Virus record (IMG/VR): IMGVR_UViG_3300003323_000541
Span: 1 to 64,000 of that record
Direction: 5' to 3' (one strand)
Source of the DNA: a virus
DNA length: 64,000 nt
Shown: piece after piece, positions 622 to 7,663 of the stretch
How positions within the stretch are numbered: position 1 is the stretch's first letter
Layout of the letters: every line of letters starts with the position of its first letter
Program-made: the position numbers and the translations under genes
Notes under the pieces: model-generated
What the model was told of the DNA's origin: nothing
Database searches by the model: none
The model's input: the letters and a program-made list of their open reading frames with translations, nothing else

Positions 622-695
622 ACCACTATACTGAGAGATTCGAACTCTCATCTCTGCTGTTAAGCAGGTCCTACCATTAAACGAAGTATAGCGGT
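622..695 (-). ncRNA. tRNA-like RNA with collapsed anticodon loop and extended acceptor stem
   Basis: CTATACT/AGTATAG acceptor (extends to 11 bp), GTTTAATGGTAGGAC D-arm, perfect GAGAG-TTCGAAT-CTCTC T-arm, but anticodon arm CTGCT-TAAC-AGCAG has a 4-nt loop; no CCA. Confidence 0.75.
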
Positions 696-934: not shown

Positions 935-1127
935 TCAATATCGCATTTTTGGAGCTTCCATTAAAATGACGATGATTGATCCTTCTGATCTTATTACCTG
1001 TTACTATGAGCTCTGAACTACTTAACTGAGAGAGAACGATTATCTTTTTGAATTTGTCCGTTTTAAGGACAATTACGTTCGCTGCTATATCTTCTGAGAT
1101 ACGCGGCGATTTCTTTTGGATAACCAT
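834..1127 (-). CDS. hypothetical protein
   Basis: 97-aa ORF overlapping neighbours in the leftward operon. Confidence 0.55.
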   Translation of the reverse strand: MVIQKKSPRISEDIAANVIVLKTDKFKKIIVLSQLSSSELIVTGNKIRRINHRHFNGSSKNAILNAIDQELLARELFKTIISPFVTNNKRNGHGIFS

Positions 1128-1384
1128 TTTTCATTGGAGATAATAGATCCTCCTGCGGATCTGATTTTCTTTTCCTCTGCTTTAGCGAGCTTGATAAGGT
1201 TCCTTTCTTCATCAGATTTCTTGTTGTATTCAGCATCTTTCTGAAGAATAGGTTTACGCAAACCTTCGCTCACCATTTGAAGATCATTAGTAGAATTAAC
1301 TACCGGGTAGGCATTTACTCTTCTGCCCATAATCAGGTCATCAGGGTCCTGGACTCTGAATCTTCCGTTGTTGTTTACTTGCAT
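1085..1384 (-). CDS. hypothetical protein
   Basis: 99-aa ORF; start overlaps stop of upstream gene (TAATG). Confidence 0.7.
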   Translation of the reverse strand: MQVNNNGRFRVQDPDDLIMGRRVNAYPVVNSTNDLQMVSEGLRKPILQKDAEYNKKSDEERNLIKLAKAEEKKIRSAGGSIISNEKWLSKRNRRVSQKI

Positions 1385-1725
1385 TATTCGTTTGCAATGA
1401 TAATCTCATTCATTTTAGGGATAAGTACCTCTCTTACGAAGTTCTTATCTTCTACTTCCTTATTGGACACCTTAAATGTCTGATAAGGCTTAAATTCAGC
1501 TCGTTTCTCTGCAATCATACGACCTTTCTTTCTAATAAAGAGGTCTTTTTTAGAACATACAGAGACTCCGATACGAACCTCGTATTTGGGTTTGCGGGTT
1601 ATTTTACCCACGCCTGTCTTAACGAGAATAGCTGCTACACTAACCCGTTTCTTTCTTTTCTTCTTGTTATCAGGTTGATTAGCTTCCACCTGAGAATAGC
1701 GATGATAAAAACGATCTGTAAACAT
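1384..1725 (-). CDS. conserved phage protein (GxSxCSxxDxFxxxxG motif)
   Basis: GVSVCSKKDLFIRKKGRMIAEKRA motif; start moved to ATG 1725 because the longer ORF overlaps the tRNA at 1747-1823. Confidence 0.75.
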   Translation of the reverse strand: MFTDRFYHRYSQVEANQPDNKKKRKKRVSVAAILVKTGVGKITRKPKYEVRIGVSVCSKKDLFIRKKGRMIAEKRAEFKPYQTFKVSNKEVEDKNFVREVLIPKMNEIIIANE

Positions 1726-1746
1726 ATTAATTGTTTTAATAATTAG

Positions 1747-1823
1747 TACCCTGGGTTGGGATCGAACCAACATGTATCCAGTTATCCTTTCAACTGCTTA
1801 GAAGGCAGAGGGAATACCAAGGC
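1747..1823 (-). tRNA. non-canonical tRNA-Arg(UCU) with the D-loop sequence located 3' of the anticodon arm
   Basis: GCCTTGG-TATTCCCT-CTGC-CTTCTAA-GCAG-TTGAAAGGATAACTGGATACAT-GTTGG-TTCGATC-CCAAC-CCAGGGT-A; intact acceptor, anticodon and T arms. Confidence 0.8.
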
Positions 1824-1832
1824 ATAGAAGGA

Positions 1833-2411
1833 TTACTCCTTCTTAATTTTCAATTTATCAACCGGAATATTGAATTTTTTTGCAATTTCGTCCATCGAGA
1901 GTTCAGTTTTCTCTTCTTCTGTAATTCCTTCAACCCGATAACCTAAACCATATAAATAGTCTATTCTTGCATATTCTACTTTTGATCTTGCAAACGGATT
2001 TTTATCAGAATATAAAACACATTCTCCTATTTTCTCAAGAACAATGAGATCTTTTAAGTCTTTACTACTTGAGTTGTAGACTTTTAAAACATCTCCTTCC
2101 TCGAAATCGATGCTTAGTTTTTCAATGTATACCTTATCCACTGTTAGAACAAAAGAAGAATAGTTAGCTGTAGTTAATTGCCATGAATATTTAAACTTTC
2201 CAGTTCCTTCTGTAGGAGTCGTTCCTTTAAAGTTTTCATTGTTGTGTAATACAAAATAAGATAAACTTTCTTCGCTAAAATAGAGCTTTCCTGAGAATTT
2301 TTTCATGTTATATTCTACATCAACTGATTTACCTAACATATCTGGTCTCAAGTCCTTAGCTAAAATTTTTATTTTCATAATTTTCGTTTTTTGATAGATG
2401 ATCCTGTGCAA
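1833..2411 (-). CDS. hypothetical protein (start probably at Met 2378)
   Basis: C-terminal ELSMDEIAKKFNIPVDKLKIK motif common in phage proteins. Confidence 0.75.
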   Translation of the reverse strand: MHRIIYQKTKIMKIKILAKDLRPDMLGKSVDVEYNMKKFSGKLYFSEESLSYFVLHNNENFKGTTPTEGTGKFKYSWQLTTANYSSFVLTVDKVYIEKLSIDFEEGDVLKVYNSSSKDLKDLIVLEKIGECVLYSDKNPFARSKVEYARIDYLYGLGYRVEGITEEEKTELSMDEIAKKFNIPVDKLKIKKE

Positions 2412-2728
2412 CCCTTGAGTTGTTTATTTTTGAAATCAATTCTTTCGATTATTTTTTCTACCCCCACATGTTGAGCTAAAACTTCCAATCTAAAGAACAG
2501 ATCTCCACATTCTTCGATGATCTTGTCCTTAGGAGGTCTGAACTCCTTCTCTTTTGTCACACATTTAACAAGAACCTCACTTAGTTCACTCATCTCTTCG
2601 ATGGTCTTCATGTAATTGAAATTCTTGTTGTTTACACCTAAAATATAATCGACTGTTTCAGGGTCACAGTGAGACACAACTGATAGTCTTATTATCTTGC
2701 TCATTATTGGAGGTTTTAAGAGGTTCAT
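2375..2728 (-). CDS. MazG-like nucleotide pyrophosphohydrolase
   Basis: EEMSEL...IIEECGDL matches the ExxE...ExxD MazG/all-alpha NTP-PPase motif. Confidence 0.75.
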   Translation of the reverse strand: MNLLKPPIMSKIIRLSVVSHCDPETVDYILGVNNKNFNYMKTIEEMSELSEVLVKCVTKEKEFRPPKDKIIEECGDLFFRLEVLAQHVGVEKIIERIDFKNKQLKGCTGSSIKKRKL

Positions 2729-2816
2729 ATGGTAAAGGAGGGTAAAGTTCTTCCTTATGATTTTTAGTGGCTCTAATGAGCCTTAAAATGCGTTTCATTT
2801 CATTTGTTTTAATGTG

Positions 2817-2854
2817 AAAAGAAGAAGGGACCTTGATTATCTCAAAATCCCTTC
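2817..2854 (-). terminator. putative intrinsic terminator
   Basis: GAAGGGA...TCCCTTC hairpin followed by TTCTTTT on minus strand, downstream of ORF 2889-3341. Confidence 0.5.
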
Positions 2855-2888
2855 ATTGATTAAACCAACTACTCTATAAACCTTTACT

Positions 2889-3341
2889 TTAATATTGCAT
2901 GAACTTTCGTCCATAGATATACCATTGTTGGAGGATAGGTATACCAAATATGAATTCGGGCTTCTTAGGGAGCTCCATATAGGTTTTGTTTCCCCAGAAC
3001 ATAAGATCTTCATCTACATAGAACCGATACAGGAAGTTATCACCATTGCAGAAATCCCTGGACAAATAGTAAATATAGTCCAAAAGAGCTTCTGTGGTAT
3101 AGAATTTGAAAAAGGGTTTGTCTACGAAAGTCCAGTATTTTTCACACCGGCCGATTTCATAGACATAAGTATAACCACCTGTATCTACAATTTCGAATTT
3201 CCATGTATTTGTATGGGTGTATCCGAAATTCTGGTCAGATTGACACAAACATGTGTCCACAGGGTTATTTTTCGCTGAGATCAATCCATTCATCGAAATG
3301 GACATCAGCAGGCTCAGGAAGAGAATTTTCATCGTTTTCAT
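2889..3341 (-). CDS. hypothetical secreted protein
   Basis: N-terminal signal-like MKILFLSLLMSISMNGLISA. Confidence 0.7.
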   Translation of the reverse strand: MKTMKILFLSLLMSISMNGLISAKNNPVDTCLCQSDQNFGYTHTNTWKFEIVDTGGYTYVYEIGRCEKYWTFVDKPFFKFYTTEALLDYIYYLSRDFCNGDNFLYRFYVDEDLMFWGNKTYMELPKKPEFIFGIPILQQWYIYGRKFMQY

Positions 3342-6968: not shown

Positions 6969-7042
6969 AACATCAAGGGAGATTCGAACTCACCAACTGT
7001 AAGGAATAACCCCCACTGCTTTACCAATTAAGCTACTGATGT
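6969..7042 (-). ncRNA. tRNA-like RNA with aberrant anticodon arm
   Basis: ACATCAG/TTGATGT acceptor, canonical TAGCTTAATTGGTAAAGC D-arm, TTCGAAT T-loop; anticodon arm GTGGGG-GTTATT-CCTTAC cannot form a 7-nt loop on a 5-bp stem. Confidence 0.7.
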
Positions 7043-7055
7043 TTCCGGGTTCACG

Positions 7056-7663
7056 TGGACCATGTCGGAGTCGCATGATTAACAAATAGTTTCCTACTTG
7101 GTTGGACTATATCATCACCTGTTCTAGGTGTTGGATGCTGTGGGCTCACCGTGGTGTCCCTAGTCTCTGAACCTTCTTACTTCTTCCAGTAAGCTCGGCT
7201 GCTGATTGGCATATAAAATAACATATTATTTTACTTAGCTTTCCAGCAATTCTTCCAATTTACAATCATATATCCCTATATGATGGGTCCGAAATTAAAC
7301 CGACGTCTTCTCCATTGCTAATAAATCATTTATAGGCTTATCTCATTCTAGTAAATGAGCAAAAAAAGGGAATGCTGTAGAATAATCCACAACACTCCCT
7401 TAAAGGGCTAACTGGCGTTAGCGCTCCACCACTTTATTTTTACGAAATAAAGAAAACGAAACGGGCGTTTTATGTTCCTTAGATTACGCCTCAACTAGCT
7501 CGGGAGCACCTACAAAAGCAAGTGCATCCTCGAAGGTGAAGTCAGAAACTTCATTAACTACGTTAGTAGCATTTGTTTGTTGGTATACATTTTATGGTGC
7601 TATACTACCATTGCACCGCCTAAAGATTTACTAGTCATATGTGAATCAATTCCCGTATGGCCC
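7056..7663 (-). ncRNA. ssrA: tmRNA (interrupted by a group I intron)
   Basis: GGGCCAT/ATGGTCC-A acceptor with G3.U70; pk1 (GGTGC/GCACC, TGGTA/TACCA); tag frame 7570-7484 ATNVVNEVSDFTFEDALAFVGAPELVEA*; 3' GAC-GTCGG-TT|CGACT-CCGAC T-arm restored by intron removal. Confidence 0.9.
7074..7297 (-). mobile_element. group I self-splicing intron (224 nt, no ORF) in the tmRNA T-loop
   Basis: core elements AATTGCTGGAAA (P), AATCAGCAG (Q), TTCAGAGACTA (R), GATATAGTCC (S); P7 GACTA/TAGTC; P1 GGTT/GACC with U.G at the 5' splice site; terminal omega-G. Confidence 0.92.

What the first reader, a model, noticed from the sequence alone, without database searches (positions are those of the whole stretch)
1747..1823. 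Topologically rearranged tRNA-Arg(UCU): D-loop moved to the 3' side of the anticodon arm
Seen: acceptor, T-arm and CT-TCT-AA anticodon loop are intact and total length is a normal 77 nt. However, only 8 nt (TATTCCCT) link the acceptor to the anticodon stem, while 22 nt follow it and contain AACTGGATA. CCT before the anticodon stem can pair with AGG after it. Established: AACTGGATA is a typical tRNA-Arg D-loop, with G18G19 contacting the T-loop and A20 the main ArgRS identity element. Inference: the RNA rebuilds the L-shape with rewired backbone connectivity, since an Arg D-loop matched to an Arg anticodon is unlikely from random decay. It could be an undescribed tRNA architecture that evades host tRNA nucleases and is missed by tRNA scanners.
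Basis: partly seen in the sequence, partly recalled or inferred. Interest (0 to 1): 0.88.

Follow-up and report, generated by a model that had tools for sequence, protein, structure and literature searches.

The report
Rewired phage arginine tRNA gene
This 77-base gene in a crAss-like phage belongs to a widespread, apparently phage-only family of arginine and isoleucine tRNAs whose D-loop and half of the D-stem sit after the anticodon arm instead of before it, a layout that standard tRNA finders miss and that I could not find described in print.

Summary
Window 1747-1823 (minus strand) has a 7-bp acceptor stem, a consensus T-arm and a CUUCUAA anticodon loop. It has no D hairpin: 8 nt precede the anticodon stem and 22 nt holding AACUGGAUA follow it. 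ARAGORN misses it and Rfam tRNA scores 27.2 bits, below the cut-off of 29.

It is not decay. The same layout occurs in at least 60 distinct sequences from Streptomyces, Microbacterium, Vibrio, Felix O1 and crAss-like phages, with anticodons for Arg (ACG, UCU, UCG, CCU), Ile (GAU, UAU), CAU and Val (UAC).

Covariation supports four helices. One is a 3-bp helix (11-13 with 37-39) that encloses the anticodon arm.

Read against a normal tRNA, two blocks are swapped: [D-stem 5' strand + D-loop] now follows [D-stem 3' strand + anticodon arm].

Sequence equivalents of the tertiary contacts persist. The base after GG is A in 20/20 Arg members and U in 26/26 others, matching the ArgRS A20 rule. The 15:48-like pair covaries (A:U to G:C).

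Charging, decoding and nuclease evasion are untested. Earlier agents of this scan noted the same family in Felix O1-like phages. I found no paper on it.

The parts
1747..1823 (-). Whole non-canonical tRNA-Arg(UCU) gene, 77 nt, with no encoded CCA
   Evidence: Sequence. Family covariance model R1 gives 91.2 bits. Rfam tRNA gives 27.2 bits, below the cut-off of 29.
1817..1823 (-). Acceptor stem 5' strand (RNA positions 1-7), pairing with 1748-1754
   Evidence: 7/7 pairs including two G.U. All seven pairs show compensatory changes across the family.
1814..1816 (-). Connector U8 A9 U10
   Evidence: U8 and A9 are invariant and U10 is about 95% conserved. U10 faces invariant U40, which would be the 13:22-like layer (inference).
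1811..1813 (-). Helix H 5' strand (positions 11-13, UCC). It takes the place of the D-stem 3' strand (positions 22-25).
   Evidence: It pairs with positions 37-39 in 30/30 sequences, with 3-4 pair types at each pair.
1794..1810 (-). C14, then the anticodon arm (positions 15-31): U15.U31 plus CUGC/GCAG, loop CUUCUAA, anticodon UCU at 1800-1802
   Evidence: Pair 19-27 covaries with five pair types. Pair 15-31 is U.U in the core group but A-U or C-G in divergent members. The loop has U33 and A37.
1788..1792 (-). Linker U32 G33 A34 A35 A36, closing what is a strand break between positions 44 and 10 in a cloverleaf
   Evidence: UUGAAA was present in all 46 sequences picked by their 5' half; its two U's were fixed by the search pattern and GAAA was not. 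Its role (C14-G33 as the 26:44 layer, A's in the groove) is inferred.
1785..1787 (-). Helix H 3' strand (positions 37-39, GGA). It takes the place of the D-stem 5' strand (positions 10-13).
   Evidence: Covariation with positions 11-13.
1775..1784 (-). Displaced D-loop U40 AACUGGAUA (positions 40-49). Proposed equivalents: A41=A14, A42=R15, G45G46=G18G19, A47=A20, A49=A21.
   Evidence: U40, A41 and G46 (the G before the position-20 base) are invariant in the unbiased set; 44 of 46 have GG. A47 is tied to Arg anticodons, 20/20 against 0/26. It closely resembles the D-loop of E. coli tRNA-Arg(ACG) as I recall it, AGCUGGAUA (own knowledge).
1772..1774 (-). C50 A51 U52, a short variable-region remnant, with U52 as the equivalent of Y48
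   Evidence: C50 and A51 are invariant. Positions 42/52 covary: A/U 33, G/C 7, others 6.
1755..1771 (-). T-arm GUUGG-UUCGAUC-CCAAC
   Evidence: Consensus T-loop. Four of five pairs show compensatory changes.
1747..1754 (-). Acceptor 3' strand CCAGGGU plus discriminator A73
   Evidence: A/G73 fits the bacterial Arg identity set (PMC9976931).
1826..1843 (-). 7-bp hairpin AGAAGGA-GUAA-UCCUUCU ending 2 nt before the tRNA 5' end. The stop codon of the upstream ORF (1833-2381) lies in its loop.
   Evidence: Function unknown; it may be a processing or stability element.

Best explanation
This is a working phage tRNA-Arg(UCU) gene of a conserved, phage-restricted tRNA class with a strand-swapped D domain.

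Architecture. In a cloverleaf the order is 8-9, [D-stem 5' strand + D-loop], [D-stem 3' strand + 26 + anticodon arm + 44], variable loop. Here the two bracketed blocks are exchanged. After U8 A9 U10 come three bases that act as the D-stem 3' strand. These run straight into the anticodon arm. The chain returns through UUGAAA into three bases that act as the D-stem 5' strand. It then continues into a normal-looking D-loop (UAACUGGAUA) and reaches the T-stem through CAU.

Inferred fold. All three new joins link residues that are spatial neighbours in the canonical L-shape. The D-stem/anticodon-stem stack could therefore be kept, along with U8:A14, R15:Y48, the G18G19/T-loop elbow and A20. This is inference.

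Inferred function. The RNA would be cut from the minus-strand transcript by RNase P and 3' nucleases, given CCA by the host enzyme, charged by host ArgRS using A47 (=A20), C35, U36 and A73, and used to read AGA, the phage's main Arg codon.

Shown: the family, the helices, the identity-element coupling and the phage restriction. Inferred: the 3D fold, processing, charging and decoding.
For: 1. Collinear homologues occur in unrelated phages. Examples are Streptomyces phages Mildred21 and Stanimal, Microbacterium phage A3Wally, the crAss-like Kehishuvirus and Felix O1.
2. A 3'-half pattern gave 44 viral loci, of which 42 are true members. A 5'-half pattern gave 66 loci and 46 distinct sequences, all with the full layout.
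3. On 30 sequences, 97.5% of cells pair and 15 of 19 pairs have compensatory changes. Helix 11-13/37-39 pairs in 100% of cells. No shuffle reached the observed values, and slid controls pair at 50% or less. RNAalifold predicts the same structure on its own.
4. Model R1 scores separate cleanly. There are 46 places at 72 bits or more, 8 divergent members at 39-63 bits, and ordinary tRNAs at 29 bits or less.
5. Anticodon loops are canonical 7-mers with U33 and A37.
6. Identity elements follow the anticodon. A follows GG in 20/20 Arg members and U in 26/26 others (Fisher 1.8e-13, not corrected for relatedness). Ile and CAU members have A73 in 26/26; Arg members have G73 or A73 in 17/20. These are the bacterial Arg and Ile identity sets (PMC9976931).
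7. Positions 42/52 covary as a Levitt pair would (Fisher 3e-5). The G:C state turns up at five or more places on the tree.
8. CCA is encoded in 11/20 Arg members.
9. Members sit in tRNA arrays with the same 5-7 nt spacers as canonical neighbours.
10. Their anticodon is not duplicated by a canonical tRNA in the same locus in all but 3 of about 43 non-CAU cases. The one member with a broken acceptor stem (L013) sits beside a canonical tRNA with the same anticodon.
11. In this phage AGA makes up 57% of Arg codons. Three of its four clear-cut canonical tRNAs in the window's tRNA region (Leu UAG, Gly UCC, Ile UAU) also read A-ending codons.
12. Across 185,579 prokaryote species genomes the pattern hit only 6 true members. 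All are on MAG contigs, the two examined with ARAGORN carrying phage-like tRNA clusters and a third being a jumbo-phage contig, and none is in an isolate genome. The other 15 hits are chance matches.
Against: 1. There is no direct evidence that the RNA is made, processed, charged or used.
2. The single-sequence fold is no better than shuffles (z = -0.24), and the MFE structure is not the covariation-supported one.
3. Helix H has only 3 bp, and the top anticodon-stem pair is U.U.
4. The stretch CUCUG...CAGUUGAAA is nearly invariant across isotypes. That is more than a tRNA usually needs and could mark a protein-binding site.
5. The association statistics treat related sequences as independent.
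6. Three loci also hold a canonical tRNA with the same anticodon.
7. The 3D argument rests on textbook tRNA geometry, not on a model of this RNA.
8. This copy has no encoded CCA and lies between protein genes rather than in a tRNA array.
Confidence: 0.7

Rival explanations
1. It is a conserved tRNA-like RNA that is not a decoder. It could be an RNase P/Z processing signal within the operon. It could also be a decoy that soaks up a host tRNA-targeting nuclease, a synthetase or a modification enzyme.
For: 1. The core is more invariant across isotypes than ordinary tRNAs are.
2. This copy sits 9 nt after one ORF and 21 nt before the next, behind a hairpin.
3. The same genome holds other tRNA-like genes whose anticodon arm cannot decode. 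In 625-691 it is a 5-bp stem with a 4-nt loop.
Against: A processing signal needs neither a 7-nt anticodon loop with U33 and A37, nor the isotype-matched base after GG, nor a matching discriminator. It would also not need to fill the anticodon gap in the phage's own tRNA set. A decoy would predict mimicry of one target, not eight anticodons. Encoded CCA in 11/20 Arg members fits a chargeable end.
Confidence: 0.22
2. It is a decayed or rearranged tRNA pseudogene with no function.
For: It scores below the Rfam threshold and ARAGORN does not call it. One family member (L013) has a broken acceptor stem.
Against: At least 60 distinct sequences share the layout across phages of Actinomycetota, Bacteroidota and Pseudomonadota hosts. 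Compensatory changes occur in every helix and a tertiary pair covaries. A pseudogene would not keep these.
Confidence: 0.03
3. It is a gene-level permutation that RNA processing undoes, by circularisation or splicing as in the permuted tRNA genes of Cyanidioschyzon merolae. The mature tRNA would then be an ordinary cloverleaf.
For: Segment order differs from the cloverleaf, and a group I intron lies elsewhere in the same tRNA region (7083-7308).
Against: The two acceptor strands are already at the ends of the gene, so circular permutation cannot restore the order. Undoing an internal block swap would need two cuts and two ligations. No bulge-helix-bulge or intron-like element is present in the 77 nt. 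The covarying helix H exists only in the unrearranged order.
Confidence: 0.02

Closest known systems
Canonical bacterial and phage tRNA-Arg (Rfam RF00005), for example E. coli tRNA-Arg(ACG) and argU, or T4 tRNA-Arg(UCU)
   Same: 7-bp acceptor stem, 5-bp T-stem with UUCGAnY loop, 7-nt anticodon loop CUnnnAA, D-loop-like AAYUGGAUA with A20, A/G73, and total length of 77 nt.
   Different: There is no D hairpin between position 9 and the anticodon arm. The D-stem forms by long-range pairing around the anticodon arm, with its strands in the opposite order along the chain. The D-loop lies in the variable-region position. The score is below the Rfam gathering threshold.
Metazoan mitochondrial D-armless tRNA-Ser(AGY/AGN), anticodon GCU or UCU (reviewed in PMC4394434)
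   Same: No D hairpin 5' of the anticodon arm, and the same codon family (AGN).
   Different: As I know them, the mitochondrial forms replace the D-arm with a short loop, lose the G18G19/T-loop consensus and need a dedicated mitochondrial translation system. This family keeps GG, the T-loop consensus and U8/A14-like bases, and rebuilds a D-stem.
Circularly permuted tRNA genes of Cyanidioschyzon merolae (Soma et al. 2007, from my own knowledge; gene diversity reviewed in PMC4033280)
   Same: tRNA segments lie in a non-standard order along the gene.
   Different: Those genes place the 3' half before the 5' half and mature through a circular intermediate into a normal cloverleaf. Here the termini are normal and an internal block is swapped, so the order cannot be restored by circularisation.
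allo-tRNAs and (8/4), (9/3) tRNAs of bacteria and phages (Mukai et al., PMC5389517)
   Same: Natural non-canonical tRNAs found by mining genomes and metagenomes, some in phage tRNA clusters.
   Different: They alter the lengths of the acceptor and T stems but keep the cloverleaf order. This family keeps 7/5 and changes the connectivity of the D domain.
Other rewired phage tRNAs noted earlier in this scan (Felix O1-like Arg and Trp; crAss001-like Tyr)
   Same: The Felix O1 Arg(UCU) element has the same architecture. It scores 48.9 bits with my model and has helix CUC/GAG and GGA.
   Different: According to those notes, the Trp and Tyr cases are different layouts. I did not examine them.

Membership tests
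Canonical tRNA (Rfam RF00005) | 7-bp acceptor stem plus discriminator | tested here: met
   GCCUUGG/CCAGGGU plus A. The pairs covary across relatives.
Canonical tRNA (Rfam RF00005) | T-arm with a 5-bp stem and UUCRAnY loop | tested here: met
   GUUGG-UUCGAUC-CCAAC.
Canonical tRNA (Rfam RF00005) | Anticodon arm with a 7-nt loop, U33 and purine 37 | tested here: met
   Loop CUUCUAA. The stem is 4 Watson-Crick pairs plus U.U.
Canonical tRNA (Rfam RF00005) | D-arm hairpin between position 9 and the anticodon arm | tested here: not met
   The Rfam alignment leaves 4 nt in place of 15 model positions and inserts 18 nt after the anticodon arm.
Canonical tRNA (Rfam RF00005) | Score at or above the gathering threshold of 29 bits | tested here: not met
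   27.2 bits. ARAGORN default finds 0 of 60 family members.
   UCC/GGA at positions 11-13/37-39. The helix pairs in 100% of cells and covaries in the family.
   UAACUGGAUA-CAU, present in 46/46 sequences picked by the 5' half only.
   91.2 bits, E = 6e-24. The candidate was one of the 30 training sequences. Members not used for training score 72-95 bits.
Bacterial tRNA-Arg identity set (PMC9976931) | A20, C35, U/G36 and A/G73 | tested here: met
   A47 follows G45G46, the anticodon is UCU and the discriminator is A. The base after GG is A only with Arg anticodons in the family. Actual recognition by ArgRS cannot be tested here.
Mitochondrial D-armless tRNA-Ser(AGY) | D-arm replaced by a short unpaired connector, with loss of the D-loop/T-loop consensus | tested here: not met
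   GG, the T-loop consensus and a paired D-stem analogue are all kept.
Permuted tRNA genes (Cyanidioschyzon type) | 3' half encoded upstream of the 5' half, with acceptor ends internal to the gene | tested here: not met
   The acceptor strands are at the two ends of the 77-nt gene.
Functional elongator tRNA | Processed, CCA-tailed, aminoacylated and active on the ribosome | not testable with these tools
   No sequencing run could be listed for the locus, and there is no biochemical tool.

The most novel reading that the evidence does not exclude
The RNA is charged with arginine and used by the bacterial ribosome exactly as encoded. That would make this family the first natural elongator tRNA class in a bacterial translation system whose backbone does not follow the cloverleaf order. 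It would be a block-swapped core that keeps the L-shape contacts. So far it is seen only with anticodons served by class Ia synthetases (Arg, Ile, CAU, Val). It may be kept in phages because the altered D domain escapes a host tRNA-targeting defence.
Probability: 0.6. Interest if true: 0.9.

Novelty: new variant of a known kind. Interest (0 to 1): 0.8.

Why it matters
The cloverleaf order of tRNA segments is treated as universal outside a few organelles, and annotation tools build it in. A conserved family that rebuilds the D domain with a different chain order would show that the L-shape can be reached by another topology in a standard bacterial translation system.

It would also explain apparently missing tRNAs in phage genomes. 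The Felix O1 paper expected an AGA tRNA and found none. Many phage records leave these genes unannotated, misname them, or cover them with ORFs.

The family offers a natural scaffold for engineering orthogonal tRNAs. It also gives a concrete test of whether phage tRNAs change shape, and not only anticodon-loop sequence, to escape tRNA-cleaving defence systems. Several carriers are culturable, so the question can be tested directly.

Tried and rejected
1. An exact pattern taken from the candidate alone found nothing in viral contigs. A pattern of conserved positions was needed.
2. Flanking proteins have no PHROG or Pfam family, apart from weak NTP-pyrophosphohydrolase hits (best E = 0.001) for 2375-2728. 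They have no relatives next to other family members. Gene context therefore says nothing about function.
3. The only related phage found through the major capsid protein is a 21.5-kb fragment without the gene.
4. Sequencing runs: none was listed for window 1000-3000, so expression could not be examined and read laying was not used.
5. Single-sequence folding is uninformative (z = -0.24).
6. ARAGORN at an 80% threshold calls an 88-nt 'tRNA-Arg(tct)' at 1746-1833 with a poor 5-bp acceptor stem and a 1-bp D-stem. I rejected this in favour of the 77-nt covariation-supported form. ARAGORN in mitochondrial mode does not call it.
8. A reading of the anticodon hairpin as a D-arm, with a hidden anticodon arm in the 22 nt, was rejected by inspection. 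That stretch has no stem, and nothing there covaries.
9. A kink-turn reading of the CU/UUGAAA internal loop was rejected, because there are no tandem G.A pairs.
10. Eight full-text searches found no description of this architecture. They covered D-arm, noncanonical, cloverleaf, D-armless, viral tRNA, anticodon nuclease and Felix O1. The library lacks most subscription journals, so prior description cannot be excluded.

Full report
**Observation**

- a 7-bp acceptor stem (GCCUUGG/CCAGGGU, with two G.U pairs) and discriminator A;
- a consensus T-arm (GUUGG-UUCGAUC-CCAAC);
- an anticodon hairpin CUGC-CUUCUAA-GCAG with anticodon UCU;
- only 8 nt between the acceptor stem and the anticodon stem;
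- 22 nt after the anticodon stem, containing AACUGGAUA.

ARAGORN with default settings and Rfam at gathering threshold find four or five ordinary tRNAs in the window but not this one. With relaxed filters the Rfam tRNA model aligns it end to end at 27.2 bits (cut-off 29). It does so by deleting the D-arm and inserting 18 nt in the variable region.

The window belongs to a 99.9-kb circularly closed virus record. Its major capsid protein is of the crAss type (PF23898, E = 6e-98).

**It is a family, not a wreck**

A sensitive BLAST of the 91-nt region against GenBank phages gave collinear 62-64-nt matches at about 80-83% identity in 53 records. These comprised Streptomyces 43, Vibrio 6, Microbacterium 2, a crAss-like Kehishuvirus 1 and one uncultured phage.

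Four were inspected:
- In Mildred21 the site is annotated tRNA-Phe(gaa), although its loop CUUCGAA reads UCG.
- In A3Wally, Stanimal and Kehishuvirus it is unannotated. In Kehishuvirus it fills a 90-nt gap in a tRNA array.

Aligned, they share the odd layout but carry different acceptor, T and anticodon stems, with anticodons UCU, UCG, ACG and GAU.

A pattern of conserved 3'-half positions found 44 loci in IMG/VR, of which 42 have the whole architecture. A pattern taken only from the 5' half found 66 loci and 46 distinct sequences. Every one has the matching 3' half.

A covariance model (R1) run over 41 of these virus records gives three well-separated score groups:
- 46 places at 72 bits or more;
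- 8 more divergent members at 39-63 bits;
- ordinary tRNAs at 29 bits or less.

The divergent members keep the layout with different internal-loop sequences. In the window's own genome the candidate scores 91.2 bits and nothing else exceeds 19.

**Structure**

On 30 distinct sequences, the structure consists of the acceptor stem, helix H (11-13 with 37-39), the anticodon stem and the T-stem. It is paired in 97.5% of cells, and 15 of 19 pairs show changes on both sides. No shuffle reaches the observed values, and sliding the partners by one to three columns drops pairing to 50% or less.

Helix H is paired in all 90 cells, with three or four pair types at each position. RNAalifold, given only the alignment, returns exactly this structure.

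The right helix in this copy is therefore UCC/GGA.

The fifth anticodon-stem pair (15-31) is U.U in the core group. In divergent members it becomes A-U or C-G. The anticodon stem is thus a normal 5 layers.

**How it maps onto a cloverleaf (inference from textbook tRNA geometry)**

The strand that runs 5'-3' down the anticodon stem is continuous, in a normal tRNA, with the D-stem 3' strand (22-25). Here it is continuous with positions 11-13. The strand that runs up the anticodon stem is followed, across a chain break, by the D-stem 5' strand (10-13), which leads into the D-loop. Here it is followed through UUGAAA by positions 37-39, and then by UAACUGGAUA.

The molecule is therefore a cloverleaf with two adjacent blocks exchanged:
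- [D-stem 5' strand + D-loop];
- [D-stem 3' strand + 26 + anticodon arm + 44].

The three new joins are 9 to 22, 44 to 10, and 21 to 46-48. In the known L-shape they connect residues that lie next to one another, through the 9:23:12 triple, the 26:44 layer next to 10:25, and A21 beside 46/48.

Sequence evidence fits kept tertiary contacts. In the 46 sequences chosen without reference to their 3' half:
- U40, A41 (=A14), the G preceding the position-20 base (GG in 44 of 46), C50 and A51 are invariant.
- Position 49 (=A21) is a purine in 45.
- Positions 42 and 52, the equivalents of the R15:Y48 Levitt pair and in no helix, covary: A/U 33, G/C 7, G/U 2, A/C 2, G/G 2 (Fisher 3e-5).
- The G:C state appears at five or more scattered places on a tree built without those columns. 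The tree is weakly resolved.

**Is it a decoder?**

- Anticodons. Among 48 distinct members collected with the model there are 22 Arg (ACG 9, UCU 9, UCG 3, CCU 1), 18 Ile (GAU 10, UAU 8), 7 CAU and 1 Val (UAC). All are substrates of class Ia synthetases.
- Position after GG. In the unbiased set it is A in 20/20 Arg members and U in 26/26 others. A20 is the main determinant for bacterial ArgRS, and U20 is listed for bacterial Ile (PMC9976931).
- Discriminators. They are A in 26/26 Ile and CAU members and G or A in 17/20 Arg members.
- CCA. It is encoded in 11/20 Arg members.
- Position in arrays. Members sit in tRNA arrays at the usual 5-7-nt spacing.
- Complementarity. In all but 3 of about 43 non-CAU cases, no canonical tRNA with the same anticodon lies in the same locus. 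The one member with a ruined acceptor stem (L013) lies beside a canonical tRNA-Ile(UAU).
- Codon usage. In this phage AGA is 57% of Arg codons. Three of its four clear-cut canonical tRNAs in the window's tRNA region (Leu UAG, Gly UCC, Ile UAU; the fourth is Phe GAA) also read A-ending codons, two of which, GGA and AUA, are heavily used.

These points favour a charged, decoding tRNA over a mere processing signal or decoy. None of them is direct evidence. No sequencing run could be listed for the locus.

**Distribution**

In one genome for each of 185,579 prokaryote species, the 3' pattern hit 21 places. About 17 are expected by chance for 18 fixed bases, by my own estimate.

Fifteen are chance matches without the architecture. 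The six true members all lie on MAG contigs. One is the same 362,763-bp jumbo-phage contig that is in IMG/VR. Another lies 5 nt after the last of 20 canonical tRNAs on a 217-kb contig. None is in an isolate chromosome.

The family therefore looks phage-restricted. It spans phages of Actinomycetota, Bacteroidota and Pseudomonadota hosts. Flanking genes are not shared between carriers.

**Local context**

The gene lies in a minus-strand run of small ORFs of unknown function. It starts 9 nt after the stop codon of ORF 1833-2381 and ends 21 nt before the likely start of ORF 1384-1725. A 7-bp hairpin holding that stop codon ends 2 nt before the tRNA 5' end. The RNA must therefore be excised from an mRNA-like transcript, and CCA must be added afterwards.

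**Rivals**

- A non-decoding tRNA mimic remains possible, at about 0.2. The core is unusually invariant across isotypes, and the same genome has tRNA-like genes with undecodable anticodon arms.
- A pseudogene is excluded by the covariation.
- Repair by RNA processing is implausible. The acceptor ends are already terminal, and helix H exists only in the genomic order.

**Known or new**

Eight full-text searches found no description of this layout. The nearest published non-canonical bacterial or phage tRNAs, the allo-tRNAs and (8/4) tRNAs, keep the cloverleaf order (PMC5389517).

Earlier agents of this scan reported the same family for tRNA-Arg in Felix O1-like phages. I checked this. My model finds a UCU member at AF320576 25951-26029 (48.9 bits), with helix CUC/GAG and GGA. 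It is unannotated and overlapped by 'ORF100'. The Felix O1 genome paper states that a tRNA for the over-represented AGA codon was expected but not found (PMC3185647).

This report adds:
- the crAss-like and actinophage members;
- the Ile, CAU and Val members;
- the A20/U20 coupling;
- the 15:48-type covariation;
- the explicit block-swap mapping.

**Verdict**

Function as a charged decoder is likely, at about 0.7, but unproven. Nuclease evasion is an open idea: published work shows phage tRNAs resisting defence nucleases through anticodon-stem changes (PMC12445682), but nothing here tests it.

Noticed in passing
window 625-691 (-): A 67-nt tRNA-like gene lies 10 nt downstream (3') of tRNA-Phe (Rfam tRNA 38.6 bits). 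Its acceptor, D-like and T arms are good, but its anticodon arm is a 5-bp stem CUGCU/AGCAG closed by a 4-nt loop UAAC. ARAGORN draws a 6-nt loop. It has no readable anticodon, so it may be a non-decoding tRNA mimic. The only BLAST hit in GenBank phages is a weak one to a Bacillus phage tRNA-Ala.
   Followed up: partly
window 6969-7042 (-): A second tRNA-like gene (Rfam 36.4 bits; ARAGORN 'tRNA-???' with a 2-base anticodon) has an anticodon region GGGGG-UUAU-UCCUU, giving a 4- or 6-nt loop rather than 7.
   Followed up: partly
window 7083-7308 (-): A group I intron (Rfam RF00028, 86.3 bits, full length) lies 40 nt upstream of the odd tRNA-like gene at 6969-7042. I saw no obvious host ORF or tRNA exon around it. 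Similar introns occur in Vibrio, Pseudoalteromonas and Bacteroides phages.
   Followed up: partly
G000:C1:98551-98681 (+), outside the window but next to its start on the circular genome: A 131-nt tRNA match (Rfam 34.2 bits) has a roughly 58-nt hairpin-forming insertion inside the D-loop, between GCUCAGU and GGUAGAGC. Its anticodon region again folds with a 6-nt loop (CUAAUU). I know of no precedent for an insertion at this position in a bacterial or phage tRNA.
   Followed up: no
L003 303-378 (Streptomyces phage Mildred21, MF155946 91367-91442): A family member is annotated in GenBank as tRNA-Phe(gaa). Its 7-nt loop CUUCGAA and the GGA after the D-like GG indicate Arg(UCG). Other family members in Stanimal, A3Wally, Kehishuvirus and Felix O1 are unannotated or overlapped by hypothetical ORFs.
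   Followed up: yes
L013 3600-3676 (-) (IMGVR_UViG_3300021254_000057): A family member with anticodon UAU has an acceptor stem that no longer pairs (1 of 7). A canonical tRNA-Ile(UAU) lies in the same locus. This looks like decay after redundancy.
   Followed up: partly
family-wide (alignments A2, A4): The anticodon stem of the core group is CUG-N/N-CAG in all isotypes. This is a paired CNG motif of the kind reported as the P2-OLD cleavage site in tRNA anticodon stems (PMC12445682). Whether that matters is unknown.
   Followed up: no
L011 / L040 (IMGVR_UViG_GVMAG-M-3300007345-3_000001, a 'giant virus bin'): A family member with anticodon UAU sits on a 5.6-kb contig binned as a giant virus. It is probably a mis-binned phage contig, but I did not check this.
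   Followed up: no
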